Source: Eledone cirrhosa (taxonomy: Eukaryota). From it: 64,000 nucleotides of DNA. Each line of letters begins with the position of its first letter. Position 1 is the first letter of the stretch. Shown piece after piece: positions 9,875 through 50,239 of this stretch. Below the pieces are notes generated by a model. It was not told the DNA's origin. It made no database searches and saw nothing but the letters and a program-made list of their open reading frames with translations. A program made the translations under genes and the position numbers. The stretch lies in the NCBI GenBank assembly GCA_964016885.1, contig OZ024740.1:34162001-34226000 (forward strand), written 5' to 3'.

Positions 9875-9880
9875 CTGACG

Positions 9881-11886: not shown

Positions 11887-12832
11887 ACAGTCCTCTGGCA
11901 AGCAGGCGCAGCAATCAGTGGAGACTCCACTTCGACATTCTATAGAGGGATTGTACGTTACAAGGGCGACGACGTGCTCGGAGAGACTCTGGGCGTCGAA
12001 GACGATGAGCTCACCAGTATGTTTGGTAGGACTTTCCGCCCGGGACCTATGGACAACTTCCAGAGGTCCCTGGCCTGGCAGTGCTACCGAGGAGCTCTAC
12101 CGGTTCGTGACAAGATCTACAGGCACGGACGCCCTGGCAGGGATCCTTCCAAGAGGACGTGTCCAAGATGTGCGCAGGACATTGAAACAGTTCTGCACGC
12201 AATTGTACACTGCCCGGGCGTAAGCGACCTGTGGAACTATGCAGAACAACTGCTGTCGCGTATGGGACAAATACAGTTGACTGCCGAGTCCATAGTAAGG
12301 ATCAAACCGCCAGACTCTTTCAAAAACGAAAGAGAGGCGGTTTTCCTCTGTACGGTGGCTATGGTGAAAGAAGTTATATGGTGGACGAGGTTGAGAGGAC
12401 TGAGGACAGATGCCTTTCTCTCCGGACAACAATTGATTCCATTCTTTAAGTATCACTTTAGAAGGAGAATCAGGGTGGAGAGAGAGGCACTGCACCCCAG
12501 TAAATTTACTGAAAGGTGGGTGAATGAAGCGAAAATGGCCCGAGTGATTGGGCCTTCTCTGTTTATAAGCCTGTAGGTTGAGGAAGAGAGCAAAAGGAAG
12601 AAAGGAGCACTTGCACAACACGCTCCTTGAGTTGAGGGTTGTTCTATCGACGGGGTATTAAACAACCCATTTGTGGCGCCTCCCCCCTATTGGGGATTTC
12701 GATTGTTGAAATTGTTTGTTTTTATATTTTTTACACGACTGTATGTAAAATCCCCGGCATGTCTTTGTATTGTCCCCTTTCTTGTTGCGCCCTTGTGGCT
12801 AATAAAGAAATCTATCTATCTATCTATCTATC
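11887..12832 (+). mobile_element. L1/Tx1-clade LINE copy 2, short 3' fragment of a more diverged subfamily, (TATC)n tail
   Basis: ORF 11974..12576 contains WQCYRGALPVRDK and CPRCAQDIETVLHAIVHC (CCHC). The 3' UTR ends TGTGGCTAATAAAGAAA followed by about 5-6 TATC units. Confidence 0.9.
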
Positions 12833-15800: not shown

Positions 15801-15854
15801 AACTCTCCATTTGTATTTGTCCCCTTCTTTTGTGCCATTGTGGCTAATAAAGAA

Positions 15855-15904
<50 letters not shown>
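12833..15904 (+). mobile_element. L1/Tx1-clade LINE copy 3, truncated at the end of the APE endonuclease, (TATC)n tail
   Basis: YSDH (APE C-terminus), GLGYWKLNLSL, KSPGLDGLPYEFY, NFRPTTLLN, DQSKAFDRVDH, YADD and CPRC..ETVAHAFVHC. In-frame stops at 14414-14416, 14528-14530 and 15569-15571. AATAAA then about 12 TATC units. Confidence 0.93.
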
Positions 15905-18619: not shown

Positions 18620-19235
18620 CACATACACGCCCCTCCCACACCCCTACACAACACACACGTACCTCACATCCACCCACCACACCCACACCTCACACCCACC
18701 CAACACACCCACACCTCACACCCACCCAACACACACACACACACACCTCACACCCACCCAATACACACCTCACACCCACCTCACACCCACCAAACACACA
18801 CTCACACCTCACACACACCCAATACACACACACCTCACACCCACCCAACACATACACACACACCGCACACCCACCCAACACACACACACACACCTCAAAA
18901 ACACACAATACACACACACACCTCACACACACACACCTCACACCCAACCACCACACACCCACCCAACACACACACACCTCAAACACACCCAATACACACA
19001 CACACCTCACACACACCTCACACCCACCCAACACACACACACATACACACCTCAAACACACCCAATACACATACACACCTCACACCCACCCAACGTACAC
19101 TCAGACACCTCACACACACACACCTCACACACACCAAACACACACACCCACCCAACACCTCATACTCACCCAACACCTCACACCCACCCTACACCCACAA
19201 ACACACCCACCCAACATCACACACACACACACACA
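18620..19235. repeat. Degenerate CA-rich minisatellite (approx. ACACACCTCACACCCACCCAAC units)
   Basis: Seen directly; the plus strand is almost devoid of G, with recurring CACCTCACAC and CCCACCCAA modules. Confidence 0.92.
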
Positions 19236-28200: not shown

Positions 28201-28651
28201 CTAAAGAAACTTCATTTTTGTCAAGTGTAGCCCCCAACTCCTAGAACCTCAAGAAACTTTATTTTTGTCAAGTGTAGCCCCCCAACTCATAGAACCTCAA
28301 GAAACTTTATTTTTGTCAAGTGTAGCCCCATCTCCTAGAACCTCAAGAAACTTCATTTTTGTCAAGTGTAGCCCCCCGACTCCTAGAACCCCAAGAAAGT
28401 TCATTTTTGTCAAGTGTAGCCCCCCCCCCGACTCCTAGAACCTCAAGAAACTTCACTTTTGTCAAGTGTAGCCCCCAACATCTAGAACTTCAAGAAAATT
28501 CATTTTTGTAATGTGTAGACACCCGACTACTAGGACCTCAAGAAACTTCATTTTTGTCAAGTGTAGCCCCAACACCTAGGACCTCAAGAAACTTCACTTT
28601 TGTCAAGTGTAGCTCCCAACTCCTACAAACTAAAGAAACTTCATTTTTGTC

Positions 28652-28693
28652 AACCCTAACCCTAACCCTAACCCTAACCCTAACCCTAACCCT
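28652..28693. repeat. Interstitial telomeric tract (AACCCT)7 = TTAGGG on the minus strand
   Basis: Perfect 42-bp run counted in the sequence. Confidence 0.97.
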
Positions 28694-31600
28694 CCAACTC
28701 CTATAACTTCAAGAAACTTCATTTTTCTCAAGTGTAGCCCCCGACTCCTAGAACCTCAAGAAGCTTCATTTTTGTCAAGTGTAGCCCCCCAACTCCTAGA
28801 ACCTCAAGAAACTTCACTTTTGTCAAGTGTAGCCCTCCGACTCCTAGAACCTCAAGAAACTTTATTTTTGTCAAGTGTAGCCCCCAAATCCTAGAACCTC
28901 AGGAAACTTCATTTTTGTCAAGTGTAGCCCCCCTCCCCAACTCCTAGAACCTCAAGAATCTTCATTTTTGTCAAGTGTAGCCTCAATTCCTAGAACCTCA
29001 AGAAACTTCATTTTTGTCAAGTGTAGCCCACAACTCCTAAAACCTCAAGAATCTTCATTTTTGTCAAGTGTAGCCTCAATTCCTAGAACCTCAAGAAACT
29101 TCATTTTTGTCAAGTGTAGCCCCCCAACTCCTAGAACCTCAAGAAACTTCATTTTTGTCAAGTGTAGCCCCCCAACTCCTAGAACCTCAAGAATCTTCAT
29201 TTTTGTCAAGTGTAGCCTCAATTCCTAGAACCTCAAGAATCTTCATTTTTGTCAAGTGTAGCCCTCCAACTCCTAGGACCTCAAGAAACTTCATTTTTGT
29301 CAAGTGTAGCCCCCAACTCCTATAACCTCAAGAAACTTCATTTTTGTCAAGTGTAGCCCCCAACTCCTATAACCTCAAGAAACTTCATTTTTGTCAAGTG
29401 TAGCCCCCAACTCCTATAACTTCAAGAAACTTCATTTTTGTCAAGTGTAGCCCCCAACTCCTAGAACCTCAAGAATCTTCATTTTTGTCAAGTGTAGCCT
29501 CAATTCCTAGAACCTCAAGAAACTTCATTTTTGTCAAGTGTAGCCCCCCCAACTCCTAGAACCTAAAGAAACTTCATTTTTGTCAAGTGTAGCCCCCAAC
29601 TCCTAGAACCTCAAGAAACTTCACTTTTGTCAAGTGTAGCCCTCCAACTCCTATAACTTCAAGAAACTTCATTTTTGTCAAGTGTAGCCCCCAACTCCTA
29701 TAACCTCAAGAAACTTCATTTTTGTCAAGTGTAGCCCTCCAACTCCTAGAACATCAAGAAAATTCATTTTTCTCAAGTGTAGCCCCCAACTCCTAGAACC
29801 TCAAGAAACTTCATTTTTGTCAAGTGTAGCTCCCCGACTCCTAGAACCTCAAGAAACTTCATTTTTGTCAAGTGTAGCTCCCCGACTCCTAGAACCTCAA
29901 GAAACTTCATTTTTGTCAAGTGTAGCTCCCCGACTCCTAGAACCTCAAGAAACTTCATTTTTGTCAAGTGTAGCTCCCCGACTCCTAGAACCTCAAGAAA
30001 CTTCATTTTTGTCAAGTGTAGCTCCCCGACTCCTAGAACCTCAAGAAACTTCATTTTTGTCAAGTGTAGCCTCCCCGACTCCTAGAACCTCAAGAAACTT
30101 CATTTTTGTCAAGTGTAGCTCCCCGACTCCTAGAACCTCAAGAAACTTCATTTTTGTCAAGTGTAGCTCCCCGACTCCTAGAACCTCAAGAAACTTCATT
30201 TTTGTCAAGTGTAGCCTCCCCGACTCCTAGAACCTCAAGAAACTTCATTTTTGTCAAGTGTAGCCCCCAACTCCTATAACCTCAAGAAACTTCATTTTTG
30301 TCAAGTGTAGCCTCCCCGACTCCTAGAACCTCAAGAAACTTCATTTTTGTCAAGTGTAGCCCCCAAATCCTAGAACCTCAAGAAACTTCATTTTTGTCAA
30401 GTGTAGCCCCCAAATCCTAGAACCTCAAGAAACTTCATTTTTGTCAAGTGTAGCCCCCAACTCCTATAACCTCAAGAAACTTCATTTTTGTCAAGTTTGG
30501 CCTCCCCGACTCCTAGAACCTCAAGAAACTTCATTTTTGTCAAGTGTAGCCCCCAAATCCTAGAACCTCAAGAAACTTCATTTTTGTCAAGTGTAGCCCC
30601 CAACTCCTAGAACCTCAAGAAACTTCATTTTTGTCAAGTGTTGCTCCCCGACTCCTAGAACCTCAAGAAACATCATTTTTGTCAAGTGTAGCTCCCCGAC
30701 TCCTAGAACCTCAAGAAACTTCATTTTTGTCAAGTGTAGCCTACCCGACTCCTAGAACCTCAAGAAACTTCATTTTTGTCAAGTGTAGCCCCCAACTCCT
30801 ATAACCTCAAGAAACTTTATTTTTGTCAAGTGTAGCCCCCAAATCCTAGAACCTCAAGAAACTTCATTTTTGTCAAGTGTAGCCCCCGACTCCTAGAACC
30901 TCAAGAAACTTCATTTTTGTCAAGTGTAGCCCCAATTCCTAGAACCTCAAGAAACTTCCTTTTTGTCAAGTGTAGCCCCCCGACTCCTAGAACCTCAAGA
31001 AACTTCATTTTTGTCAAGTGTAGCCCCAATTCCTAGAACCTCAAGAAACTTCATTTTTGTCAAGTGTAGCCCCCGACTCCTAGAACCTCAAGAATCTTCA
31101 TTTTTGTCAAGTGTAGCCCCAACTCCTAGAACCTCAAGAATCTTCATTTTTGTCAAGTGTAGCCTCAATTCCTAGAACCTCAAGAGACTTCATTTTTGTC
31201 AAGTATAGCCCCCGACTCCTAGAACCCCAAGAAAGTTCATTTTTGTCAAGTGTTTCCCCCCCCCCGACTCCTAGAACCCCAAGAAAGTTCATTTTTGTCA
31301 AGTGTAGCAACACCCCCCGACTCCTAGAACCTGAAGAAACTTCATTTTTGTCAAGTGTAGCCCCAATTCCTAGAAACTCAAGAAACTTCATTTTTGTCAA
31401 GTGTAGCACCCAACCCCTAGAACCTCAAGAAACTTCATTTTTGTCAAGTGTAGCCTCCTCGGCTCCTAGAACCTCAAGAAGCTTCATTTTTGTCAAGTGT
31501 AGCCCCCCAACTCCTAGAACCTCAAGAAACATCATTTTTGTCAGGTGTAGCCCTCCAACTCCTATAACCTCAAGAAACTTCATTTCTGTCAAGTGTAGCT

Positions 31601-33928
31601 CGCAAATCCTAGAACCTCAAGAAACTTCATTTTTGTCAAGTGTAGCCCTCCAACTCCTAGAACCTCAAGAAACTTCATTTTTGTCAAGTGTAGCCCCCCG
31701 AATCCTAGAACCTCAAGAAACTTCATTTTTGTCAAGTGTAGCCCCCAACCCCTAGAACCTCAAGAAACTTCATTTTTGTCAAGTGTAGCCTCCAACTCCT
31801 AGAACCCCAAGCGAGTTCATTTTTGTCAAGTGTAGCCCCCCCCCGACTCCTAGAACCTCAAGAAACTTAATTTTTGTCAAGTGTAGCCCCAACTCCTAGA
31901 ACCTCAAGAAACTTTATTTTTGTCAAGTGTACCACCCAACTCCTAGAACCTCAAGAAACTTAATTTTTATCAAGTGTAGCCCCATCTCCTAGAACCTCAA
32001 GAAACTTCATTTTTGTCAAGTGTAGCCCCGTACTCCTAGAACCTCAAGAAACTACACTTTTGTCAAGTGTAGCTCCCAACTCCTAGAACCTAAAGAAACT
32101 TCATTTTTGTCAAGTGTAGCCCCCAACTCCTAGAACCTCAAGAAACTTTATTTTTGTCAAGTGTAGCCCCCCAACTCATAGAACCTCAAGAAACTTCATT
32201 TTTGTCAAGTGTAGCCCCATCTCCTAGAACCTCAAGAAACATCATTTTTGTCAAGTGTAGCCCCGTACTCCTAGAACCTCAAGCAACTTCACTTTTGTCA
32301 AGTGTAGCTCCCAACTCCTAGAACCTAAAGAAACTTCATTTTTGTCAAGTGTAGCTCCCCGACTCCTAGAACCTCATGAAACTTCACTTTTGTCAAGTGT
32401 AGCTCCCAACTCCTAGAACCTAAAGAAACTTCATTTTTGTCAAGTGTAGCCCCCAACACCTAGAACCTCAAGAAACATCATTTTTGTCATGTGTAGACGC
32501 CCGACTCCTAGAACCCCAAGAAAGTTCATTTTTGTCAAGTGTAGCCCCCCCCCCTGACTCCTAGAACCTCAAGAAACTTCATTTTTGTCAAGTGTAGCCC
32601 CCCGACACCTAGAACCCCAAGAAAGATCATCTTTGTCAAGTGTAGCCCCCCCCCCCGACTCCTAGAACCTCAAGAAACTTCACTTTTGTAAAGTGTAGCC
32701 TCCAACTTCTAGAACCCCAAGAAAATTCATATTTGTAGAGTGTAGCCCCCCACGCCTACAACCTCAAGAAACTTCATTTTTGTCAAGTGTAGACACCCGA
32801 CTCCTAGAACCTCAAGTAACTTCATTTTTGTCAAGTGTAGCCCCCCGACTGCAAGAACCCCAAGAAAGTTCATCTTTGTCAAGTGTAGCCCCCCACCCCT
32901 ACAACCTCAAAAAACTTCATTTTTGTCAAGTGTAGACCCCCGACTCCTAGAACCTCAAGAAACTTCATTTTTGTCAAGTGTAGCCCTCAACACCTAGAAC
33001 CCCAAGAAAATTCATTTTCGTCAAGTGTAGACCCTCGGCTCCTACAACCTCAAGAAACTTAATTTTTGTCAAGTGTAGCCCCATCTCCTAGAACCTAAAG
33101 AAACTACACTTTTGTCAAGTGTAGCTCCCAACTCCTAGAACCTAAAGAAACTTCATTTTTGTCAAGTGTAGCCCCCAACTCCTAGAACCTCAAGAAACTT
33201 TATTTTTGTCAAGTGTAGCCCCCCAACTCATAGAACCTCAAGAAACTTTATTTTTGTCAAGTGTAGCCCCATCTCCTAGAACCTCAAGAAACATCATTTT
33301 TGTCAAGTGTAGCCCCGTACTCCTAGAACCTCAAGAAACTTCACTTTTGTCAAGTGTAGCTCCCAACTCCTAGAACCTAAAGAAACTTCATTTTTGCCAA
33401 GTGTAGCTCCCCGACTCCTAGAACCTCAAGAAACTTCACTTTTGTCAAGTGTAGCACCCAACTCCTAGAACCTAAAGAAACTTCATTTTTGTCAAGTGTA
33501 GCCCCCAACACCTAGAAACTCAAGAAACATCATTTTTGTCAAGTGTAGACCCCCGACTCCTAGAACCCCAAGAAAGTTCATTTTTGTCACGTGTAGCCCC
33601 CCCCCTGACTCCTAGAACCTCAAGAAACTTCATTTTTGTCAAGTGTAGCCCCCCGACTCCTAGAACCCCAAGAAAGTTCATTTTTGTCAAGTGTAGCCCC
33701 CCCCCCGACTCCTAGAACCTCAAGAAACTTCACTTTTGTCAAGTGTAGCCCCCAACATCTAGAACTTCAAGAAAATTCATTTTTGTAATGTGTAGACACC
33801 CGACTACTAGGACCTCAAGAAACTTCATTTTTGTCAAGTGTAGCCCCAACACCTAGGACCTCAAGAAACTTCACTTTTGTCAAGTGTAGCTCCCAACTCC
33901 TACAAACTAAAGAAACTTCATTTTTGTC

Positions 33929-33958
33929 AACCCTAACCCTAACCCTAACCCTAACCCT
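33929..33958. repeat. Interstitial telomeric tract (AACCCT)5
   Basis: Perfect 30-bp run with the same flanks as 28652. Confidence 0.97.
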
Positions 33959-36900
33959 CCAACTCCTATAACTTCAAGAAACTTCATTTTTCTCAAGTGT
34001 AGCCCCCGACTCCTAGAACCTCAAGAAGCTTCATTTTTGTCAAGTGTAGCCCCCCAACTCCTAGAACCTCAAGAAACTTCACTTTTGTCAAGTGTAGCCC
34101 TCCAACTCCTAGAACATCAAGAAAATTCATTTTTCTCAAGTGTAGCCCCCAACTCCTAGAACCTCAAGAAACTTCATTTTTGTCAAGTGTAGCTCCCCGA
34201 CTCCTAGAACCTCAAGAAACTTCATTTTTGTCAAGTGTAGCCTCCCCGACTCCTAGAACCTCAAGAAACTTCATTTTTGTCAAGTGTAGCCCCCAACTCC
34301 TATAACCTCAAGAAACTTTATTTTTGTCAAGTGTAGCCCCCAAATCCTAGAACCTCAGGAAACTTCATTTTTGTCAAGTGTAGCCCCCGACTCCTAGAAC
34401 CTCAAGAAACTTCATTTTTGTCAAGTGTAGCCTCCCCGACTCCTAGAACCTCAAGAAACTTCATTTTTGTCAAGTGTAGCCCCCAACTCCTATAACCTCA
34501 AGAAACTTTATTTTTGTCAAGTGTAGCCCCCAAATCCTAGAACCTCAAGAAACTTCATTTTTGTCAAGTGTAGCCCCCGACTCCTAGAACCTCAAGAAAC
34601 TTCATTTTTGTCAAGTGTAGCCCCAATTCCTAGAACCTCAAGAAACTTCATTTTTGTCAAGTGTAGCCTCCTCGGCTCCTAGAACCTCAAGAAGCTTCAT
34701 TTTTGTCAAGTGTAGCCCCCGACTCCTAGAACCTCAAGAAACATCATTTTTGTCAAGTGTAGCCCTCCAACTCCTATAACTTCAAGAAACTTCATTTTTC
34801 TCAAGTGTAGTACCCAACTCCTAGAACCTCAAGAAACTTCACTTTTGTCAAGTGTAGCCCTCCAACTCCTAGAACATCAAGAAAATTCATTTTTCTCAAG
34901 TGTAGCCCCCAACTCCTAGAACCTCAAGAAACTTCATTTTTGTCAAGTGTAGCCCCCAACTCCTAGAACCTCAAGAAACTTCATTTTTGTCAAGTGTAGC
35001 TCCCCGACTCCTAGAACCTCAAGAAACTTCATTTTTGTCAAGTGTAGCCCCCAACTCCTATAACCTCAAGAAACTTCATTTTTGTCAAGTGTAGCCCCCA
35101 AATCCTAGAACCTCAAGAAACTTCATTTTTGTCAAGTGTAGCCTCCCCGACTCCTAGAACCTCAAGAAACTTCATTTTTGTCAAGTGTAGCTCCCCGACT
35201 CCTAGAACCTCAAGAAACTTCATTTTTGTCAAGTGTAGCTCCCCGACTCCTAGAACCTCAAGAAACTTCATTTTTGTCAAGTGTAGCCTCCCCGACTCCT
35301 AGAACCTCAAGAAACTTCATTTTTGTCAAGTGTAGCCCCCAACTCCTATAACCTCAAGAAACTTCATTTTTGTCAAGTGTAGCCTCCCCGACTCCTAGAA
35401 CCTCAAGAAACTTCATTTTTGTCAAGTGTAGCCCCCAAATCCTAGAACCTCAAGAAACTTCATTTTTGTCAAGTGTAGCCCCCAAATCCTAGAACCTCAA
35501 GAAACTTCATTTTTGTCAAGTGTAGCCCCCAACTCCTATAACCTCAAGAAACTTCATTTTTGTCAAGTTTGGCCTCCCCGACTCCTAGAACCTCAAGAAA
35601 CTTCATTTTTGTCAAGTGTAGCCCCCAAATCCTAGAACCTCAAGAAACTTCATTTTTGTCAAGTGTAGCCCCCAACTCCTAGAACCTCAAGAAACTTCAT
35701 TTTTGTCAAGTGTTGCTCCCCGACTCCTAGAACCTCAAGAAACATCATTTTTGTCAAGTGTAGCTCCCCGACTCCTAGAACCTCAAGAAACTTCATTTTT
35801 GTCAAGTGTAGCCTACCCGACTCCTAGAACCTCAAGAAACTTCATTTTTGTCAAGTGTAGCCCCCAACTCCTATAACCTCAAGAAACTTTATTTTTGTCA
35901 AGTGTAGCCCCCAAATCCTAGAACCTCAAGAAACTTCATTTTTGTCAAGTGTAGCCCCCGACTCCTAGAACCTCAAGAAACTTCATTTTTGTCAAGTGTA
36001 GCCCCAATTCCTAGAACCTCAAGAAACTTCCTTTTTGTCAAGTGTAGCCCCCCGACTCCTAGAACCTCAAGAAACTTCATTTTTGTCAAGTGTAGCCCCA
36101 ATTCCTAGAACCTCAAGAAACTTCATTTTTGTCAAGTGTAGCCCCCGACTCCTAGAACCTCAAGAATCTTCATTTTTGTCAAGTGTAGCCCCAACTCCTA
36201 GAACCTCAAGAATCTTCATTTTTGTCAAGTGTAGCCTCAATTCCTAGAACCTCAAGAGACTTCATTTTTGTCAAGTGTAGCCCACCGACTCCTAGAACCT
36301 CAAGAAACTTCATTTTTGTCAAGTATAGCCCCCGACTCCTAGAACCCCAAGAAAGTTCATTTTTGTATAGTGTAGCAACACCCCCCGACTCCTAGAACCT
36401 CAAGAAACTTCATTTTTGTCAAGTGTAGCCCCAATTCCTAGAACCTCAAGAAACTTCATTTTTGTCAAGTGTAGCACCCAACTCCTAGAACCTCAAAAAA
36501 CTTCATTTTTGTCAAGTGTAGCCTCCTCGGCTCCTAGAACGTCAAGAAGCTTCATTTTTGTCAAGTGTAGCCCCCCAACTCCTAGAACCTCAAGAAACAT
36601 CATTTTTGTCAAGTGTAGCACCCAACCCCTAGAACCTCAAAAAACTTCATTTTTGTCAAGTGTAGCCTCCTCGGCTCCTAGAACCTCAAGAAGCTTCATT
36701 TTTGTCAAGTGTAGCCCCCCAACTCCTAGAACCTCAAGAAACATCATTTTTGTCAAGTGTAGCACCCAACCCCTAGAACCTCAAAAAACTTCATTTTTTC
36801 AAGTGTAGCCTCCCCGACTCCTAGAACCTCAAGAAGCTTCATTTTTGTCAAGTGTAGCCCCCAACTCCTAGAACCTCAAGAAACTTCATTTTTGTCAAGT

Positions 36901-39900
36901 GTAGCCCCAATTCCTAGAACCTCAAGAAACTTCATGTTTGTCAAGTGTAGCCCCCAACTCCTAGAACCTCAAGAAGCTTCATTTTTGTCAAGTGTAGCCC
37001 CCAACTCCTAGAACCTCAAAAAACTTCATTTTTGTCAAGTGTAGCCCCCCGACTCCTAGAACCTCAAGAAACTTCACTTTTGTCAAGTGTAGACCCCGAA
37101 CTCCTAGAACATCAAGAAACTTCATTTTTCTCAAGTGTAGCCCCCAAATCCTAGAACCTCAAGAAACTTCACCTTTGTCAAGTGTAGCCTCCCCGACTCC
37201 TAGAACCTCAAGAAGCTTCATTTTTGTCAAGTGTAGCCCTCCAACTCCTATAACTTCAAGAAACTTCATTTTTGTCAAGTGTAGCCCCCGACTCCTAGAA
37301 CCTCAAGAAACTTCATTTTTGTCAAGTGTAGCCCCAACTCCTAGAACCTCAAGAAACTTCATTTTTGTCAAGTGTAGCCCCAATTCCTAGAACCTCAAGA
37401 AACTTCATTTTTGTCAAGTGTAGCCACAATTCCTAGAACCTCAAGAAACTTCATTTTTGTCAAGTGTAGCCCCCGACTCCTAGAACCTCAAGAATCTTCA
37501 TTTTTGTCAAGTGTAGCCCCAACTTCTAGAACCTCAAGAATCTTCATTTTTGTCAAGTGTAGCCCCAATTCCTAGAACCTCAAGAAACTTCATTTTTCTC
37601 AAGTGTAGCCCACCGACTCCTAGAACCTCAAGAAACTTCATTTTTGTCAAGTGTAGCCCACCAACTCCTAGAACCCCAAGAAAGTTCATTTTTGTATAGT
37701 GTAGCAACACCCCCCGACTCCTAGAACCTCAAGAAACTTCATTTTTGTCAAGTGTAGCCCCAATTCCTAGAACCTCAAGAAACTTCATTTTTGTCAAGTG
37801 TAGCACCCAACCCCTAGAACCTCAAAAAACTTCATTTTTGTCAAGTGTAGCCTCCTCGGCTCCTAGAACCCCAAGAAGCTTCATTTTTGTCAAGTGTAGC
37901 CCCCCAACTCCTAGAACCTCAAGAAACATCATTTTTGTCAAGTGTAGCACCCAACCCCTAGAACCTCAAAAAACTTCATTTTTGTCAAGTGTAGCCTCCT
38001 CGGCTCCTAGAACCTCAAGAAGCTTCATTTTTGTCAAGTGTAGCCCCCCAACTCCTAGAACCTCAAGAAGCTTCATTTTTGTCAAGTGTAGCCCCCCAAT
38101 TCCTAGAACCTCAAGAAACTTCATGTTTGTCAAGTGTAGCCCCCCGACTCCTAGGACCTCAAGAAACTTCACTTTTGTCAAGTGTAGACCCCGAACTCCT
38201 AGAACATCAAGAAACTTCATTTTTCTCAAGTGTAGCCCCCAACTCCTCGAACCTCAAGAAACTTCATTCTTGTCAAGTGTAGCTCCCCGACTCCTAGAAC
38301 CTCAAGAAGCTTCATTTTTGTCAAGTGTAGTCCCCCAACTCCTAGAACCTCAAGAAACTTCATTCTTGTCAAGTGTAGCCCCCCAACTCCTAGAACCTCA
38401 AGAAGCTTCATTTTTGTCAAGTGTAGTCCCCCAACTCCTAGAACCTCAAGAAACTTCATTTTTGTCAAGTGTAGCTCCCCAACTCCTAGAACCTCAAGAT
38501 ACTTCATTTTTGTCAAGTGTAGCTCCCAACTCCTAGAATCTCAAGAAACTTCATTTTTGTCAAGTGTAGCCCCCGACTCCTAGAACCTCAAGAAACTTCA
38601 TTTTTCTCAAGTGTAGCACCCAACTCCTAGAACATCAAGAAACTTCACTTTTGTCAAGTGTAGACCCCGAACTCCTAGAACATCAAGAAACTTCATTTTT
38701 CTCAAGTGTAGCCCCCAACTCCTCGAACCTCAAGAAACTTCATTCTTGTCAAGTGTAGCTCCCCGACTCCTAGAACCTCAAGAAGCTTCATTTTTGTCAA
38801 GTGTAGTCCCCCAACTCCTAGAACCTCAAGAAACTTCATTCTTGTCAAGTGTAGCCCCCCAACTCCTAGAACCTCAAGAAGCTTCATTTTTGTCAAGTGT
38901 AGTCCCCCAACTCCTAGAACCTCAAGAAACTTCATTTTTGTCAAGTGTAGCTCCCCAACTCCTAGAACCTCAAGATACTTCATTTTTGTCAAGTGTAGCT
39001 CCCAACTCCTAGAATCTCAAGAAACTTCATTTTTGTCAAGTGTAGCCCCCGACTCCTAGAACCTCAAGAAACTTCATTTTTCTCAAGTGTAGCACCCAAC
39101 TCCTAGAACATCAAGAAACTTCACTTTTGTCAAGTGTAGCCCTCCAACTCCTAGAACCTCAAGAAACTTCATTTTTGTCAAGTGTAGCCCCCATCTCCTA
39201 GAACCTAAAGAAACTTCATTTTTGTCAAGTGTAGCCCCCCAACTCCTAGAAACTCAAGAAACATCATTTTTGTCAAGTGTAGCCCTCCAACTCCTATAAC
39301 TTCAAGAAAGTTCATTTTTGTATAGTGTAGCAACACCCCCCGACTCCTAGAACCTCAAGAAACTTCACTTTTGTGAAGTGTAGCCTTCCAACTCCTAGAA
39401 CATCAAGAAACTTCATTTTTCTCAAGTGTAGCACCCAACTCCTAGAACCTCAAGAAACTTCATTTTTGTCAAGTGTAGCTCCCCGACTCCTAGAACCTCA
39501 AGAAACTTTATTTTTGTCAAGTGTAGCCCCCCAACTCCTAGAACCTCAAGAAACTTCATTTTTGTGAAGTGTAGCCCCCCAACTCCTAGAACCTCAAGAA
39601 ACTTCATTTTTGTCAAGTGTAGACCCCCATCTCCTAGAACCTCAAGAAACTTCATTTTTGTCAAGTGTAGCCCCCAACTCCTAGAACCTCAAGAAACTTC
39701 ATTTTTGTCAAGTGTAGCCCCAACTCCTAGAACCTCAAGAAACTTCATTTTTGTCAAGTGTAGCCCCAATTCCTAGAACCTCAAGAAACTTCATTTTTGT
39801 CAAGTGTAGCCCCCATCTCCTAGAACCTCAAGAAACTTTATTTTTGTCAAGTGTAGCACCCCAACTCCTAGAACCTCAAGAAACTTCATTTTTGTCAAGT

Positions 39901-42900
39901 GTAGTCCGCACCCCTACAACCTCAAGAAACTTCATTTTTGTCAAGTGTAGCCCCAAATCCTAGAACCTCAAGAAACTCCATTTTTGTCAAGTGTAGCCAC
40001 CAAATCCTAGAACCTCAAGAAACTTCATTTTTGTCAAGTGTAGCCCCCGACTCCTAGGACCTCAAGAAACTTCATTTTTGTCAAGTGTAGCCCCAATTCC
40101 TAGAACCTCAAGAAACTTCATTTTTGTCAAGTGTAGCCCCCCGACTCCTAGAACCTCAAGAAACTTCATTTTTGTCAAGTGTAGCCCCAATTCCTAGAAC
40201 CTCAAGAAACTTCATTTTTGTCAAGTGTAGCCCCCAACTCCTAGAACCTCAAGAAACTTTATTTTTGTCAAGTGTAGCCCCCCATCTCCTAGAACCTCAA
40301 GAAACTTTATTTTTGTCAAGTTTAGCCCCCAACTCCTAGAACATTTGAGAAACTTCATTTTTGTCAAGTGAAGCCCACAACTCCTAGAACCTCAAGAAAC
40401 TTCACTTTTGTCAAGTGTAGCCACCCACCCCTACAACCTCAAGAAACTTTATTTTTGTCAAGTGTAGCCTCCGCCCCCGACTCCTAGAACCTCAAGAAAC
40501 TTCATTTTTGTCAAGTGTAGCCTCCTCGGCTCCTAGAACCTCAAGAAGCTTCATTTTTGTAGAGTGTAGCCCCCCCAACTCCTAGAACCTCAAGAAACAT
40601 CATTTTTGTCAAGTGTAGCCCCCATCTCCTAGAACCTCAAGAAACTTTATTTTTGTCAAGTGTAGCACCCCAACTCCTATAACCTCAAGAAACTTCATTT
40701 TTCTCAAGTGTAGCCCCCAACTCCTAGAACCTCAAGAAACTTCACTTTTGTCAAGTGTAGCCCCCCAACTCCTAGAACCTCAAGAAACTTCACCTTTGTC
40801 AAGTGTAGCTCCCAACTCCTAGAACCTAAAGAAACTTCATTTTTGTCAAGTGTAGCTCCCCGACTCCTAGAACCTCAAGAAACTTCATTTTTGGCAAGTG
40901 TAGCCCCCAACTCCTAGAACCTCAAGAAACTTCACTTTTGTCAAGTGTAGCCCCCCAACTCCTAGAACCTCAAGAAACTTCATTTTTGGCAAGTGTAGCC
41001 CCAACTCCTAGAACCTCAAGAAACTTTATTTTTGTCAAGTGTACCACCCAACTCCTAGAACCTCAAGAAACTTAATTTTTATCAAGTGTAGCCCCATCTC
41101 CTAGAACCTCAAGAAACTTCATTTTTGTCAAGTGTAGCCCCGTACTCCTAGAACCTCAAGAAACTACACTTTTGTCAAGTGTAGCTCCCAACTCCTAGAA
41201 CCTAAAGAAACTTCATTTTTGTCAAGTGTAGCCCCCAACTCCTAGAACCTCAAGAAACTTTATTTTTGTCAAGTGTAGCCCCCCAACTCATAGAACCTCA
41301 AGAAACTTCATTTTTGTCAAGTGTAGCCCCATCTCCTAGAACCTCAAGAAACATCATTTTTGTCAAGTGTAGCCCCGTACTCCTAGAACCTCAAGCAACT
41401 TCACTTTTGTCAAGTGTAGCTCCCAACTCCTAGAACCTAAAGAAACTTCATTTTTGTCAAGTGTAGCTCCCCGACTCCTAGAACCTCATGAAACTTCACT
41501 TTTGTCAAGTGTAGCTCCCAACTCCTAGAACCTAAAGAAACTTCATTTTTGTCAAGTGTAGCCCCCAACACCTAGAACCTCAAGAAACATCATTTTTGTC
41601 ATGTGTAGACGCCCGACTCCTAGAACCCCAAGAAAGTTCATTTTTGTCAAGTGTAGCCCCCCCCCCCTGACTCCTAGAACCTCAAGAAACTTCATTTTTG
41701 TCAAGTGTAGCCCCCCGACACCTAGAACCCCAAGAAAGATCATCTTTGTCAAGTGTAGCCCCCCCCCCGACTCCTAGAACCTCAAGAAACTTCACTTTTG
41801 TAAAGTGTAGCCTCCAACTTCTAGAACCCCAAGAAAATTCATATTTGTAGAGTGTAGCCCCCCACGCCTACAACCTCAAGAAACTTCATTTTTGTCAAGT
41901 GTAGACACCCGACTCCTAGAACCTCAAGTAACTTCATTTTTGTCAAGTGTAGCCCCCCGACTGCAAGAACCCCAAGAAAGTTCATCTTTGTCAAGTGTAG
42001 CCCCCCACCCCTACAACCTCAAAAAACTTCATTTTTGTCAAGTGTAGACCCCCGACTCCTAGAACCTCAAGAAACTTCATTTTTGTCAAGTGTAGCCCTC
42101 AACACCTAGAACCCCAAGAAAATTCATTTTCGTCAAGTGTAGACCCTCGGCTCCTACAACCTCAAGAAACTTAATTTTTGTCAAGTGTAGCCCCATCTCC
42201 TAGAACCTAAAGAAACTACACTTTTGTCAAGTGTAGCTCCCAACTCCTAGAACCTAAAGAAACTTCATTTTTGTCAAGTGTAGCCCCCAACTCCTAGAAC
42301 CTCAAGAAACTTTATTTTTGTCAAGTGTAGCCCCCCAACTCATAGAACCTCAAGAAACTTTATTTTTGTCAAGTGTAGCCCCATCTCCTAGAACCTCAAG
42401 AAACATCATTTTTGTCAAGTGTAGCCCCGTACTCCTAGAACCTCAAGAAACTTCACTTTTGTCAAGTGTAGCTCCCAACTCCTAGAACCTAAAGAAACTT
42501 CATTTTTGCCAAGTGTAGCTCCCCGACTCCTAGAACCTCAAGAAACTTCACTTTTGTCAAGTGTAGCACCCAACTCCTAGAACCTAAAGAAACTTCATTT
42601 TTGTCAAGTGTAGCCCCCAACACCTAGAAACTCAAGAAACATCATTTTTGTCAAGTGTAGACCCCCGACTCCTAGAACCCCAAGAAAGTTCATTTTTGTC
42701 ACGTGTAGCCCCCCCCCTGACTCCTAGAACCTCAAGAAACTTCATTTTTGTCAAGTGTAGCCCCCCGACTCCTAGAACCCCAAGAAAGTTCATTTTTGTC
42801 AAGTGTAGCCCCCCCCCGACTCCTAGAACCTCAAGAAACTTCACTTTTGTCAAGTGTAGCCCCCAACATCTAGAACTTCAAGAAAATTCATTTTTGTAAT

Positions 42901-43039
42901 GTGTAGACACCCGACTACTAGGACCTCAAGAAACTTCATTTTTGTCAAGTGTAGCCCCAACACCTAGGACCTCAAGAAACTTCACTTTTGTCAAGTGTAG
43001 CTCCCAACTCCTACAAACTAAAGAAACTTCATTTTTGTC

Positions 43040-43081
43040 AACCCTAACCCTAACCCTAACCCTAACCCTAACCCTAACCCT
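43040..43081. repeat. Interstitial telomeric tract (AACCCT)7
   Basis: Perfect 42-bp run with the same flanks. Confidence 0.97.
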
Positions 43082-46000
43082 CCAACTCCTATAACTTCAA
43101 GAAACTTCATTTTTCTCAAGTGTAGCCCCCGACTCCTAGAACCTCAAGAAGCTTCATTTTTGTCAAGTGTAGCCCCCCAACTCCTAGAACCTCAAGAAAC
43201 TTCACTTTTGTCAAGTGTAGCCCTCCGACTCCTAGAACATCAAGAAAATTCATTTTTCTCAAGTGTAGCCCCCAACTCCTAGAACCTCAAGAAACTTCAT
43301 TTTTGTCAAGTGTAGCTCCCCGACTCCTAGAACCTCAAGAAACTTCATTTTTGTCAAGTGTAGCCTCCCCGACTCCTAGAACCTCAAGAAACTTCATTTT
43401 TGTCAAGTGTAGCCCCCAACTCCTATAACCTCAAGAAACTTTATTTTTGTCAAGTGTAGCCCCCAAATCCTAGAACCTCAGGAAACTTCATTTTTGTCAA
43501 GTGTAGCCCCCGACTCCTAGAACCTCAAGAAACTTCATTTTTGTCAAGTGTAGCCTCCCCGACTCCTAGAACCTCAAGAAACTTCATTTTTGTCAAGTGT
43601 AGCCCCCGACTCCTAGAACCTCAAGAAACTTCATTTTTGTCAAGTGTAGCCCCAATTCCTAGAACCTCAAGAAACTTCATTTTTGTCAAGTGTAGCCCCC
43701 CGACTCCTAGAACCTCAAGAAACTTCATTTTTGTCAAGTGTAGCCCCCATCTCCTAGAACCTCAAGAAACTTCATTTTTGTCAAGTGTAGCCCCCGACTC
43801 CTAGAACCTCAAGAATCTTCATTTTTGTCAAGTGTAGCCCCAACTCCTAGAACCTCAAGAATCTTCATTTTTGTCAAGTGTAGCCTCAATTCCTAGAACC
43901 TCAAGAAACTTCATTTTTGTCAAGTGTAGCCCCCCATCTCCTAGAACCTAAAGAAACTTCATTTTTGTCAAGTGTAGCCCTCCAACTCCTATAACCTCAA
44001 GAAACTTCATTTTTGTCAAGTGTAGCCCCCATCTCCTATAACCTCAAGAAACTTCATTTTTGTCAAGTGTAGCCCTCCAACTCCTATAACTTCAAGAAAC
44101 TTCATTTTTCTCAAGTGTAGTACCCAACTCCTAGAACCTCAAGAAACTTCACTTTTGTCAAGTGTAGCCCTCCAACTCCTAGAACCTCAAGAAACTTCAT
44201 TTTTGTCAAGTGTAGCTCCCCGACTCCTAGAACCTCAAGAAACTTCATTTTTGTCAAGTGTAGCCTCCCCGACTCCTAGAACCTCAAGAAACTTCATTTT
44301 TGTCAAGTGTAGCTCCCCGACTCCTAGAACCTCAAGAAACTTCATTTTTGTCAAGTGTAGCTCCCCGACTCCTAGAACCTCAAGAAACTTCATTTTTGTC
44401 AAGTGTAGCCTCCCCGACTCCTAGAACCTCAAGAAACTTCATTTTTGTCAAGTGTAGCCCCCAACTCCTATAACCTCAAGAAACTTCATTTTTGTCAAGT
44501 GTAGCCTCCCCGACTCCTAGAACCTCAAGAAACTTCATTTTTGTCAAGTGTAGCCCCCAAATCCTAGAACCTCAAGAAACTTCATTTTTGTCAAGTGTAG
44601 CCCCCAAATCCTAGAACCTCAAGAAACTTCATTTTTGTCAAGTGTAGCCCCCAACTCCTATAACCTCAAGAAACTTCATTTTTGTCAAGTTTGGCCTCCC
44701 CGACTCCTAGAACCTCAAGAAACTTCATTTTTGTCAAGTGTAGCCCCCAAATCCTAGAACCTCAAGAAACTTCATTTTTGTCAAGTGTAGCCCCCAACTC
44801 CTAGAACCTCAAGAAACTTCATTTTTGTCAAGTGTTGCTCCCCGACTCCTAGAACCTCAAGAAACATCATTTTTGTCAAGTGTAGCTCCCCGACTCCTAG
44901 AACCTCAAGAAACTTCATTTTTGTCAAGTGTAGCCTACCCGACTCCTAGAACCTCAAGAAACTTCATTTTTGTCAAGTGTAGCCCCCAACTCCTATAACC
45001 TCAAGAAACTTTATTTTTGTCAAGTGTAGCCCCCAAATCCTAGAACCTCAAGAAACTTCATTTTTGTCAAGTGTAGCCCCCGACTCCTAGAACCTCAAGA
45101 AACTTCATTTTTGTCAAGTGTAGCCCCAATTCCTAGAACCTCAAGAAACTTCCTTTTTGTCAAGTGTAGCCCCCCGACTCCTAGAACCTCAAGAAACTTC
45201 ATTTTTGTCAAGTGTAGCCCCAATTCCTAGAACCTCAAGAAACTTCATTTTTGTCAAGTGTAGCCCCCGACTCCTAGAACCTCAAGAATCTTCATTTTTG
45301 TCAAGTGTAGCCCCAACTCCTAGAACCTCAAGAATCTTCATTTTTGTCAAGTGTAGCCTCAATTCCTAGAACCTCAAGAGACTTCATTTTTGTCAAGTGT
45401 AGCCCACCGACTCCTAGAACCTCAAGAAACTTCATTTTTGTCAAGTATAGCCCCCGACTCCTAGAACCCCAAGAAAGTTCATTTTTGTCAAGTGTTTCCC
45501 CCCCCCCGACTCCTAGAACCCCAAGAAAGTTCATTTTTGTCAAGTGTAGCAACACCCCCCGACTCCTAGAACCTGAAGAAACTTCATTTTTGTCAAGTGT
45601 AGCCCCAATTCCTAGAAACTCAAGAAACTTCATTTTTGTCAAGTGTAGCACCCAACCCCTAGAACCTCAAGAAACTTCATTTTTGTCAAGTGTAGCCTCC
45701 TCGGCTCCTAGAACCTCAAGAAGCTTCATTTTTGTCAAGTGTAGCCCCCCAACTCCTAGAACCTCAAGAAACATCATTTTTGTCAGGTGTAGCCCTCCAA
45801 CTCCTATAACCTCAAGAAACTTCATTTCTGTCAAGTGTAGCTCGCAAATCCTAGAACCTCAAGAAACTTCATTTTTGTCAAGTGTAGCCCTCCAACTCCT
45901 AGAACCTCAAGAAACTTCATTTTTGTCAAGTGTAGCCCCCCGAATCCTAGAACCTCAAGAAACTTCATTTTTGTCAAGTGTAGCCCCCAACCCCTAGAAC

Positions 46001-48169
46001 CTCAAGAAACTTCATTTTTGTCAAGTGTAGCCTCCAACTCCTAGAACCCCAAGCGAGTTCATTTTTGTCAAGTGTAGCCCCCCCCCGACTCCTAGAACCT
46101 CAAGAAACTTAATTTTTGTCAAGTGTAGCCCCAACTCCTAGAACCTCAAGAAACTTTATTTTTGTCAAGTGTACCACCCAACTCCTAGAACCTCAAGAAA
46201 CTTAATTTTTATCAAGTGTAGCCCCATCTCCTAGAACCTCAAGAAACTTCATTTTTGTCAAGTGTAGCCCCGTACTCCTAGAACCTCAAGAAACTACACT
46301 TTTGTCAAGTGTAGCTCCCAACTCCTAGAACCTAAAGAAACTTCATTTTTGTCAAGTGTAGCCCCCAACTCCTAGAACCTCAAGAAACTTTATTTTTGTC
46401 AAGTGTAGCCCCCCAACTCATAGAACCTCAAGAAACTTCATTTTTGTCAAGTGTAGCCCCATCTCCTAGAACCTCAAGAAACATCATTTTTGTCAAGTGT
46501 AGCCCCGTACTCCTAGAACCTCAAGCAACTTCACTTTTGTCAAGTGTAGCTCCCAACTCCTAGAACCTAAAGAAACTTCATTTTTGTCAAGTGTAGCTCC
46601 CCGACTCCTAGAACCTCATGAAACTTCACTTTTGTCAAGTGTAGCTCCCAACTCCTAGAACCTAAAGAAACTTCATTTTTGTCAAGTGTAGCCCCCAACA
46701 CCTAGAACCTCAAGAAACATCATTTTTGTCATGTGTAGACGCCCGACTCCTAGAACCCCAAGAAAGTTCATTTTTGTCAAGTGTAGCCCCCCCCCCTGAC
46801 TCCTAGAACCTCAAGAAACTTCATTTTTGTCAAGTGTAGCCCCCCGACACCTAGAACCCCAAGAAAGATCATCTTTGTCAAGTGTAGCCCCCCCCCCGAC
46901 TCCTAGAACCTCAAGAAACTTCACTTTTGTAAAGTGTAGCCTCCAACTTCTAGAACCCCAAGAAAATTCATATTTGTAGAGTGTAGCCCCCCACGCCTAC
47001 AACCTCAAGAAACTTCATTTTTGTCAAGTGTAGACACCCGACTCCTAGAACCTCAAGTAACTTCATTTTTGTCAAGTGTAGCCCCCCGACTGCAAGAACC
47101 CCAAGAAAGTTCATCTTTGTCAAGTGTAGCCCCCCACCCCTACAACCTCAAAAAACTTCATTTTTGTCAAGTGTAGACCCCCGACTCCTAGAACCTCAAG
47201 AAACTTCATTTTTGTCAAGTGTAGCCCTCAACACCTAGAACCCCAAGAAAATTCATTTTCGTCAAGTGTAGACCCTCGGCTCCTACAACCTCAAGAAACT
47301 TAATTTTTGTCAAGTGTAGCCCCATCTCCTAGAACCTAAAGAAACTACACTTTTGTCAAGTGTAGCTCCCAACTCCTAGAACCTAAAGAAACTTCATTTT
47401 TGTCAAGTGTAGCCCCCAACTCCTAGAACCTCAAGAAACTTTATTTTTGTCAAGTGTAGCCCCCCAACTCATAGAACCTCAAGAAACTTTATTTTTGTCA
47501 AGTGTAGCCCCATCTCCTAGAACCTCAAGAAACATCAATTTTGTCAAGTGTAGCCCCGTACTCCTACAACCTCAAGAAACTTCACTTTTGTCAAGTGTAG
47601 CTCCCAACTCCTAGAACCTAAAGAAACTTCATTTTTGCCAAGTGTAGCTCCCCGACTCCTAGAACCTCAAGAAACTTCACTTTTGTCAAGTGTAGCACCC
47701 AACTCCTAGAACCTAAAGAAACTTCATTTTTGTCAAGTGTAGCCCCCAACACCTAGAAACTCAAGAAACATCATTTTTGTCAAGTGTAGACCCCCGACTC
47801 CTAGAACCCCAAGAAAGTTCATTTTTGTCACGTGTAGCCCCCCCCCTGACTCCTAGAACCTCAAGAAACTTCATTTTTGTCAAGTGTAGCCCCCCGACTC
47901 CTAGAACCCCAAGAAAGTTCATTTTTGTCAAGTGTAGCCCCCCCCCCGACTCCTAGAACCTCAAGAAACTTCACTTTTGTCAAGTGTAGCCCCCAACATC
48001 TAGAACTTCAAGAAAATTCATTTTTGTAATGTGTAGACACCCGACTACTAGGACCTCAAGAAACTTCATTTTTGTCAAGTGTAGCCCCAACACCTAGGAC
48101 CTCAAGAAACTTCACTTTTGTCAAGTGTAGCTCCCAACTCCTACAAACTAAAGAAACTTCATTTTTGTC

Positions 48170-48199
48170 AACCCTAACCCTAACCCTAACCCTAACCCT
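48170..48199. repeat. Interstitial telomeric tract (AACCCT)5
   Basis: Perfect 30-bp run with the same flanks. Confidence 0.97.
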
Positions 48200-50239
48200 C
48201 CAACTCCTATAACTTCAAGAAACTTCATTTTTCTCAAGTGTAGCCCCCGACTCCTAGAACCTCAAGAAGCTTCATTTTTGTCAAGTGTAGCCCCCCAACT
48301 CCTAGAACCTCAAGAAACTTCACTTTTGTCAAGTGTAGCCCTCCAACTCCTAGAACATCAAGAAAATTCATTTTTCTCAAGTGTAGCCCCCAACTCCTAG
48401 AACCTCAAGAAACTTCATTTTTGTCAAGTGTAGCTCCCCGACTCCTAGAACCTCAAGAAACTTCATTTTTGTCAAGTGTAGCCTCCCCGACTCCTAGAAC
48501 CTCAAGAAACTTCATTTTTGTCAAGTGTAGCCCCCAACTCCTATAACCTCAAGAAACTTTATTTTTGTCAAGTGTAGCCCCCAAATCCTAGAACCTCAGG
48601 AAACTTCATTTTTGTCAAGTGTAGCCCCCGACTCCTAGAACCTCAAGAAACTTCATTTTTGTCAAGTGTAGCCTCCCCGACTCCTAGAACCTCAAGAAAC
48701 TTCATTTTTGTCAAGTGTAGCCCCCAACTCCTATAACCTCAAGAAACTTTATTTTTGTCAAGTGTAGCCCCCAAATCCTAGAACCTCAAGAAACTTCATT
48801 TTTGTCAAGTGTAGCCCCCGACTCCTAGAACCTCAAGAAACTTCATTTTTGTCAAGTGTAGCCCCAATTCCTAGAACCTCAAGAAACTTCATTTTTGTCA
48901 AGTGTAGCCCCCCGACTCCTAGAACCTCAAGAAACTTCATTTTTGTCAAGTGTAGCCCCCGACTCCTAGAACCTCAAGAATCTTCATTTTTGTCAAGTGT
49001 AGCCCCAACTCCTAGAACCTAAAGAATCTTCATTTTTGTCAAGTGTAGCCTCAATTCCTAGAACCTCAAGAAACTTCATTTTTGTCAAGTGTAGCCCCAA
49101 CTCCTATAACCTCAAGAAACTTCATTTTTGTCAAGTGTAGCCCCCGACTCCTAGAACCTCAAGAATCTTCATTTTTGTCAAGTGTAGCCCCAACTCCTAG
49201 AACCTCAAGAATCTTCATTTTTGTCAAGTGTAGCCCCCGACTCCTAGAACCTCAAGAATCTTCATTTTTGTCAAGTGTAGCCCCAACTCCTAGAACCTCA
49301 AGAATCTTCATTTTTGTCAAGTGTAGCCCCAACTCCTAGAACCTAAAGAAACTTCATTTTTGTCAAGTGTAGCCCTCCAACTCCTATAACCTCAAGAAAC
49401 TTCATTTTTGTCAAGTGTAGCCCCAACTCCTAGAACCTCAAGAAACTTCATTTTTGTCAAGTGTAGCCCCCATCTCCTAGAACCTCAAGAAACTTCATTT
49501 TTGTCAAGTGTAGCCCCAATTCCTAGAACCTCAAGAAACTTCATTTTTGTCAAGTGTAGCCTCCTCGGCTCCTAGAACCTCAAGAAGCTTCATTTTTGTC
49601 AAGTGTAGCCCCCATCTCCTAGAACCTCAAGAAACTTCATTTTTGTCAAGTGTAGCCTCCTCGGCTCCTAGAACCTCAAGAAGCTTCATTTTTGTCAAGT
49701 GTAGCCCCAACTCCTAGAAACTCAAGAAACATCATTTTTGTCAAGTGTAGCCCTCCAACTCCTATAACTTCAAGAAACTTCATTTTTCTCAAGTGTAGTA
49801 CCCAACTCCTAGAACCTCAAGAAACTTCACTTTTGTCAAGTGTAGCCCTCCAACTCCTAGAACATCAAGAAAATTCATTTTTCTCAAGTGTAGCCCCCAA
49901 CTCCTAGAACCTCAAGAAACTTCATTTTTGTCAAGTGTAGCCCCCAACTCCTAGAACCTCAAGAAACTTCATTTTTGTCAAGTGTAGCTCCCCGACTCCT
50001 AGAACCTCAAGAAACTTCATTTTTGTCAAGTGTAACCTCCCCGACTCCTAGAACCTCAAGAAACTTCATTTTTGTCAAGTGTAGCTCCCCGACTCCTAGA
50101 ACCTCAAGAAACTTCATTTTTGTCAAGTGTAGCTCCCCGACTCCTAGAACCTCAAGAAACTTCATTTTTGTCAAGTGTAGCCTCCCCGACTCCTAGAACC
50201 TCAAGAAACTTCATTTTTGTCAAGTGTAGCCCCCAACTC

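What the first reader, a model, noticed from the sequence alone, without database searches (positions are those of the whole stretch)
28652..48199. Telomerase-like scars: in-register TTAGGG tracts joining two satellite domains, then amplified four times
Seen: four perfect telomeric tracts (7, 5, 7, 5 units) at the same monomer position with the same flanks. On the minus strand a normal monomer reads TTGGAGGG-CTACAC-TTGACAAAA; here it reads TTGGAGGG-(TTAGGG)n-TTGACAAAA. The repeats therefore continue in phase from the satellite's own AGGG, rejoin through a TT microhomology, and occupy the place of CTACAC. The diagnostic left-flank string (TGTAATGTGTAGACACCCGACTACTAGG...CCTACAAACTAAAG) also occurs without a tract at ~22420, ~23140 and ~26070, followed there by different monomers. 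So the tract is a junction between two monomer strings rather than a clean insertion. Established: in-phase seed homology is the hallmark of telomerase addition at breaks and of short interstitial telomeric sequences. Inference: a break in the satellite was capped by telomerase and later re-extended or fused with more satellite, and that single event was copied by unequal exchange. Every monomer carries an AGGG/GGGG seed, so the array could act as a telomerase-healable buffer.
Basis: partly seen in the sequence, partly recalled or inferred. Interest (0 to 1): 0.72.

Follow-up and report, generated by a model that had tools for sequence, protein, structure and literature searches.

The report
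Telomere scar copied inside satellite array
Four short runs of telomere repeats with identical neighbours sit inside one 197-kb block of repeated DNA; they are likely copies of a single chromosome break that telomerase patched and that was then carried along as the block duplicated, a known and ordinary kind of scar rather than a chromosome-healing system.

Summary
Four perfect telomeric tracts (6, 4, 6, 4 full units; 7, 5, 7, 5 counting borrowed flanks) replace the 6-bp head of one 47-bp satellite monomer, in register with a pre-existing AGGG. They are one event. Flanks are identical and upstream blocks differ by 0-2 substitutions. No other telomeric 12-mer occurs in about 5,480 monomers. All 1,129 exact core matches lie in two interstitial arrays 34-35 Mb into a 443-Mb scaffold. 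None of 10 assembled telomere junctions carries the satellite; all pass through a TTGGGG zone that the tracts lack. The 'telomerase-healable buffer' is therefore not supported, and AGGG stands at that position in only 6% of monomers. Best reading: a short interstitial telomeric sequence, likely added by telomerase during repair of one break and copied passively. Capture of a telomeric fragment remains a real rival; slippage is unlikely. A join of two different monomer strings is favoured (about 5% coincidence), but no empty site survives to prove it. Raw-read confirmation was not obtained. The scan noted the same kind of scar on other DNA of this genome and in other genomes. Known kind, low interest.

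The parts
19265..64000 (+). 47-bp satellite array A; runs on to about G000:C1:34,377,900 (about 197 kb, about 4,126 monomers); G-rich strand is the minus strand
28654..28689 (-). Telomeric tract, copy 1: 6 full TTAGGG units in place of the 6-bp monomer head
28690..28693 (-). Satellite-derived AGGG in register with the tract (inferred primer end); present in 25 of 27 tract-free monomers of the same variant type
28652..28653 (-). TT shared by tract phase and satellite (inferred rejoin microhomology)
33931..33954 (-). Telomeric tract, copy 2: 4 full units
43042..43077 (-). Telomeric tract, copy 3: 6 full units; shares a flank variant and a C-run length with copy 1
48172..48195 (-). Telomeric tract, copy 4: 4 full units
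22281..22421 (+). Tract-free copy of the three-monomer left string (exact), followed by another monomer
23001..23141 (+). Second tract-free exact copy of the left string
25929..26069 (+). Third tract-free copy of the left string (2 differences)
34757..34804 (+). Intact, tract-free monomer of the type that carries the tract (also at 44067 and 49745; 23 exact copies in array A, 0 in array B), with a different left neighbour

Best explanation
The four tracts are likely copies of one short interstitial telomeric sequence, made when telomerase likely primed on a satellite end reading AGGG at a double-strand break, added a few repeats, and the end was then rejoined. Steps. (1) A break next to the G-run of one monomer exposed ...GGAGGG-3' on the G-rich strand (inferred). 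(2) Telomeric repeats were added in register with that AGGG (the register is shown; the enzyme is inferred). (3) The short extension was joined through TT to the end of a monomer, with loss of the 6-bp head and probably of a whole number of further monomers, since the left string has other partners elsewhere (6-bp loss shown; larger loss inferred). (4) Two rounds of block duplication and one 2-unit length change gave 6-4-6-4, with later local reshuffling (grouping of copies 1+3 against 2+4 shown; order of events inferred). The tract is a passenger with no function of its own (inferred). The 'one passive scar' part I hold at about 0.9; telomerase as the agent brings the whole to about 0.6.
For: TTAGGG is this genome's telomere repeat: arrays of about 4-18 kb at 10 of 50 contig ends sampled. 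A TERT C-terminal domain match over the Pfam cut-off is present. One junction type in the assembly: patterns find only these four tracts beside satellite sequence. Both arrays, read whole, hold no other telomeric 12-mer on either strand: 100 in A, all accounted for by the four tracts, and 0 in B. The seed predates the tract: 25 of 27 tract-free monomers of that variant type carry it. A random break with a random phase gives 4 or more in-register bases in 0.85% of cases in this satellite, against 15-17% of mammalian short ITS (PMC7215372 Table 6; PMC2246262 Table 4; passages). A short deletion at the site is the commonest modification there (30% and about 50%). The tract is perfect and sharply bounded, whereas 10 of 10 native junctions run through TTGGGG variants into non-satellite DNA. 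Sharp borders mark de novo addition in 10.64898/2026.07.24.740321 (passages). Upstream blocks of 1.6-1.9 kb differ by 0-2 substitutions.
Against: It is one event, so the register statistic rests on n = 1. Microhomology at both ends is also what capture of a telomeric fragment predicts; PMC11293586 (passages) finds the strict telomerase seed at only about 10% of cancer neotelomeres and favours capture or error-prone addition. No empty site with both flanks survives in either array, so the original break structure is reconstructed, not seen. No telomerase-RNA-derived bases flank the tract. The TRBD search for TERT found nothing (exon-wise search, uninformative). The junction was not seen in reads, because the tool skips those bases. 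40 of 50 sampled contig ends have no assembled telomere, both ends of C1 among them, so satellite at unassembled ends is not excluded.
Confidence: 0.6

Rival explanations
1. A short piece of telomeric DNA was captured or copied into the break by end joining, using AGGG and TT as microhomologies, without telomerase acting at the site; it was then copied passively in the same way.
For: Both ends show microhomology. PMC2246262 names capture as the alternative route (section 14), and PMC11293586 favours it for cancer neotelomeres. Kilobases of perfect repeat exist at chromosome ends as donors.
Against: The tract points the way telomerase would write from the seed; its G-strand continues the satellite's G-rich strand. 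The satellite's G-strand offers 4-base seeds at 5.1% of positions against 0.09% on the other strand, so orientation discriminates little. No variant units or extra bases are present.
Confidence: 0.25
2. No break repair: a 6-bp deletion of the monomer head put AA next to CCCT and made one telomeric hexamer by chance, which slippage then expanded to 5-7 copies (the in-situ drift route proposed for Arabidopsis CenTel motifs).
For: The tract is exactly a whole number of AACCCT units whose first and last bases are satellite. The array is indel-prone (28-, 37- and 39-bp monomers, long C-runs). Single telomeric hexamers do arise in it by point change.
Against: 0 of 5,483 monomers lack the head without a tract. 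No other unit of 3-12 bp reaches 3 copies in 262 kb, while the only one that does is the telomere hexamer. The Arabidopsis preprint itself finds multi-unit gains by mutation exceedingly rare and invokes telomerase or repair (Discussion).
Confidence: 0.07
3. The array is a telomerase-healable buffer or a buried chromosome end: breaks in it are routinely capped, and this cap later fused with more satellite.
For: GGG lies next to the head in 3,599 of 5,483 monomers. Broken satellite arrays can acquire telomeres in plants (10.64898/2026.07.24.740321). Most chromosome ends are not assembled.
Against: One event in about 5,480 monomers. The satellite is confined to two arrays at 34.2-34.4 and 35.3-35.4 Mb of a 442.9-Mb scaffold (951 + 178 = 1,129 of 1,129 core matches). 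Healing here would discard about 34 Mb. No satellite at 10 of 10 native junctions; tracts are 24-36 bp against 4-18 kb and are not head-to-head.
Confidence: 0.03
4. The tract or its four-fold repetition is an assembly artefact.
For: No read confirmation; satellite arrays are hard to assemble; array B and its flanks may themselves be an uncollapsed haplotype (not tested).
Against: The four blocks differ by private substitutions, a 336-bp deletion, different monomer orders and two tract lengths that co-segregate with two flank markers. A 92-107-bp tract-adjacent left string is present without mismatch in public contigs of one sample (possibly the source sample, so not independent).
Confidence: 0.05

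Closest known systems
Short interstitial telomeric sequences (s-ITS) of primates, rodents and horse (PMC2246262: passages and section 14; PMC7215372: passages; PMC6410037: passages)
   Same: [quoted passage not shown] PMC2246262 also defines empty sites from a repeat consensus, as done here.
   Different: The host is a tandem satellite, so the scar was multiplied to four paralogous copies and the empty site has been shuffled away. The animal may not be a vertebrate (earlier AI notes say probably an octopus; not tested here).
Arabidopsis CenTel mosaic satellites / interstitial telomeric repeat domains (10.64898/2026.05.10.723265: abstract, Results part 1 of 3, Discussion; supplements closed)
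   Same: Telomeric repeats abutting a truncated satellite monomer, amplified in place as part of higher-order blocks.
   Different: There the mosaics form 69-484-kb domains with thousands of motifs and a regular period, next to centromeres. Here there are four copies in about 20 kb, no regular period, and no evidence that the array is centromeric.
Neotelomeres and telomere-spanning fusions in cancer genomes (PMC11293586, passages) and de novo telomeres on CRISPR-broken satellite arrays (10.64898/2026.07.24.740321, passages)
   Same: Sharp boundary between perfect repeats and internal DNA; short repeats left inside a rejoined chromosome.
   Different: Those are terminal and kilobases long, or join different chromosome arms. 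Here the tract is 24-36 bp with the same satellite in the same orientation on both sides.

Membership tests
Short ITS (break-repair insertion) | A few exact telomeric units (2-25) at an internal site | tested here: met
   6, 4, 6, 4 units, 34.2 Mb inside a 442.9-Mb scaffold; motif matches the genome's telomeres; size range from PMC6410037
Short ITS (break-repair insertion) | [quoted passage not shown] | tested here: met
   AGGG in 25 of 27 tract-free monomers of the same variant type
Short ITS (break-repair insertion) | End-joining signature at the site (deletion, addition or duplication) | tested here: met
   6-bp head lost, TT shared at the far end
Short ITS (break-repair insertion) | An ITS-less orthologous or allelic site with both flanks | tested here: inconclusive
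   The intact monomer exists 23 times but never with both neighbours; array B shares 0 three-monomer strings with A
Short ITS (break-repair insertion) | Telomerase as the writer | not testable with these tools
   TERT_C match present; no RNA-derived flank; needs an assay or many independent sites
TERC-ITS | Telomerase-RNA-derived sequence inserted with the repeats | tested here: not met
   No bases other than satellite and hexamers at either junction
Fusion ITS / buried native telomere | Head-to-head repeats with degenerate units and subtelomeric flanks | tested here: not met
   Single orientation, no TTGGGG zone, no subtelomeric element, unlike 10 of 10 native junctions
Heterochromatic ITS / CenTel mosaic satellite | Large block in which telomeric repeats are a regular part of the repeat unit | tested here: not met
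   4 of about 5,483 monomers; spacing 5.3, 9.1 and 5.1 kb
Telomere-associated (subtelomeric) satellite or healing substrate | Satellite abuts terminal telomere arrays; recurrent independent additions | tested here: not met
   0 of 10 assembled junctions; one junction type; both arrays interstitial; 40 of 50 sampled ends have no assembled telomere

The most novel reading that the evidence does not exclude
This is a telomere-satellite mosaic caught at birth in an animal. The G-run of this monomer is a recurrent break site at which telomerase writes in the germ line, and array turnover amplifies the scars. Other individuals would then carry further junction types, or far more copies of this one, on the way to a heterochromatic ITS like the Arabidopsis CenTel domains.
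Probability: 0.1. Interest if true: 0.5.

Novelty: new member of a known kind. Interest (0 to 1): 0.2.

Why it matters
As it stands it is a clean example of a known process. Its small value: paralogous monomers stand in for the missing empty allele, so the pre-existing seed can be shown inside one genome, and the four copies act as a tracer of how fast the array duplicates and reshuffles. It would matter more only if population long reads showed recurrence or strong copy-number change. That would make the step from a single telomerase scar to a large interstitial telomeric block testable in an animal.

Tried and rejected
Read support: one run search found 3 rows of one sample holding 35-39% of the words, plus 17 small-share rows. 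Laying 4 contig sets and 3 RAD-seq runs (3, 7 and 0 reads laid) could not show the junction, because bases 28646-28704 are skipped as repeat; no verdict. Array B as the empty allele: it has no relative of the flanking strings (best four-monomer distance 20; 0 shared three-monomer strings). Satellite derived from telomeric repeats: local alignment score 21 against a shuffle mean of 15.5, p = 0.19 in 3,000 shuffles; rejected. Two satellite domains meeting at the tract: variant sharing and distance to consensus do not change there; rejected. TERT RNA-binding domain search: no match; uninformative for a split gene. DNA search with a 201-bp stretch returned only array A among the listed rows (150 of 321 shown), and a 22-mer variant was private to A (75 of 75). 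Array B was found with a third pattern. The fifth locus (C23) is not satellite and was dropped from the junction count. A genome-wide census of short telomeric tracts was not obtained, so whether one insertion in 262 kb exceeds this genome's background is open. Paper searches found no description of this satellite or of in-register short ITS in an invertebrate satellite; they are narrow word searches (52 returned unrelated papers) and do not show absence from print.
Full report
Observation. TRF counts 7, 5, 7, 5 because two bases of the left monomer and four of the right one continue the phase. They lie in a 47-bp satellite that starts near 19265 and fills the rest of the window. Splitting the array into monomers shows that each tract stands in place of the 6-bp monomer head. 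The same monomer with its head intact occurs 23 times. The three-monomer left string recurs without a tract before 22422, 23142 and 26070, followed by other monomers. Two side claims fail. The TTGGAGGG form is a minority (263 of 4,126 monomers). A seed is not universal: AGGG or GGGG in the first 20 bases of 4,334 of 5,483 monomers, and AGGG at the tract position in 324 of 5,483, the four tracts included.

Setting. The window is G000:C1:34,162,001-34,226,000 of a 3.0-Gb genome; C1 is 442.9 Mb. The array runs on to about 34,377,900 (about 197 kb). An exact 32-base core has 1,129 matches in the genome, all on one strand: 951 in this array and 178 in a second array of about 65 kb at C1:35.34-35.40 Mb. 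The two arrays share flanks that are 97-99% identical over tens of kilobases but no three-monomer string. The second is either a segmental duplicate or an uncollapsed haplotype, which I did not test. The satellite, as assembled, is therefore a single-region interstitial repeat.

How many events. Patterns for either junction find only these four tracts next to satellite sequence. The one other locus, on C23, is not satellite. Both arrays read whole contain 100 telomeric 12-mers in A, exactly the number the four tracts give, and 0 in B. The 1.6-1.9-kb blocks upstream of the tracts differ by 0-2 substitutions, a few C-run indels and one 336-bp deletion in copy 1. Copies 1 and 3 share tract length, a variant in the third monomer to the right and a C-run length, against copies 2 and 4. 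The simplest history is one insertion, one duplication with a 2-unit length change, and a second duplication of the pair, with local reshuffling after. These blocks are about ten times less diverged than the A/B flanks, so the amplification is recent in relative terms (inference).

True chromosome ends. Of 50 contig ends fetched, 10 carry TTAGGG arrays in the terminal orientation, about 4-18 kb long. I followed all 10 inward: each passes through a TTGGGG-type variant zone into non-satellite DNA, mostly one shared AT-rich element, with no satellite word. The tracts lack that zone, so they are not pieces of a native junction or a buried end. The other 40 ends, both ends of C1 among them, have no assembled telomere, which limits the test. 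A TERT C-terminal match over the Pfam cut-off lies on C27; the RNA-binding domain search was empty and uninformative.

Mechanism. The AGGG predates the tract: 25 of 27 tract-free monomers with the same two diagnostic variants carry it. A random break with a random repeat phase would give 4 or more in-register bases in 0.85% of cases in this satellite. Among mammalian short ITS the figure is 15-17%, and a short deletion is the commonest change at the site (PMC2246262, passages; PMC7215372, passages). That is roughly a twenty-fold lean towards a seed-guided process, on one event. It does not separate telomerase from capture of a telomeric fragment through microhomology, which PMC2246262 names as the alternative (section 14) and PMC11293586 favours for cancer neotelomeres (passages). 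Slippage from a chance hexamer is unlikely. No monomer lacks the head without a tract, and no other unit of 3-12 bp reaches three copies in 262 kb. The Arabidopsis preprint on in-situ origin also needs a sequence-specific step for multi-unit tracts (10.64898/2026.05.10.723265, Discussion).

Junction or clean insertion. Both flanking strings have tract-free relatives with other partners, and no site with both flanks survives. Paralogous strings part at a given step in 14 of 395 pairs nearby and 130 of 2,670 over the array, so the break in paralogy exactly at the tract is about a 1-in-20 coincidence. That favours a join of two strings during repair. Against it, the join keeps the monomer register but for 6 bases, as a single trimmed break would, and a tract could itself stop later exchanges (inference). 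I leave this at about 60:40. There is no sign of two different satellite domains.

The buffer idea. One event in about 5,480 monomers, an interstitial position where a lasting cap would discard about 34 Mb, tracts of 24-36 bp, and no satellite at 10 of 10 junctions all speak against it.

Reads. The run search found one sample holding about a third of the words. Neither its contigs nor three RAD-seq runs could show the junction, since the tool skips the repeat bases. The tract-adjacent left string is present without mismatch in that sample's contigs, which may be the source sample. The junction is unconfirmed outside the assembly.

Comparison and verdict. It works like, and by the features that could be tested is, a short interstitial telomeric sequence. 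The empty-site test is inconclusive and the enzyme cannot be tested here. It fails the defining features of TERC-ITS, fusion ITS, heterochromatic ITS (classes as in PMC6410037, passages) and subtelomeric satellite. Searches found no paper on this satellite, which is weak evidence; supplements of the two bioRxiv preprints could not be seen. Earlier unchecked notes of this scan describe the same kind of scar elsewhere in this genome (in tRNA-gene arrays and at a seam between two satellites) and in other genomes. They are not support, and I did not test them. They also call the animal probably an octopus, which I did not test. Verdict: new member of a known kind, interest 0.2.

Noticed in passing
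G000:C1:35,338,650-35,403,660 (L083-L090) and flanks: Second array of the same satellite about 1 Mb downstream, same orientation, with flanks 97-99% identical to those of the window's array but no shared three-monomer string: complete turnover of array order since a recent duplication, or an uncollapsed haplotype.
   Followed up: partly
L099, L100; G000:C27:13.14, 14.25 and 14.73 Mb: Three equal-scoring TERT C-terminal matches on one scaffold; two compared loci align with 2,519 identities and 28 mismatches. Possible triplication of the telomerase gene, or false duplication.
   Followed up: partly
L020, G000:C23:4,164,460-4,164,483: Another short perfect telomeric tract (4 units) between short C-runs in non-satellite DNA; looks like an independent short ITS with a GGG seed.
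   Followed up: no
contig ends C5, C6, C7, C9, C10, C13 (both), C14, C18, C19 (L061-L070, L094-L096): All 10 assembled telomeres end inward in a TTGGGG-type variant zone, and most then enter one shared AT-rich subtelomeric element.
   Followed up: partly
window 18620-19235: Degenerate CA-rich repeat directly before the first monomer, also present before array B; the array starts abruptly in mid-monomer at the same base in both.
   Followed up: no
window 9680-15904: Broken open frames of 160-536 codons ending in a tetranucleotide tail at 15855-15904, likely a decayed non-LTR retrotransposon (label from its look, no family scan run); the region is duplicated beside array B.
   Followed up: no
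array A ends and array B: The C-run after the monomer head is the main length variable and reaches 12-18 bases mostly near array edges and in B.
   Followed up: no
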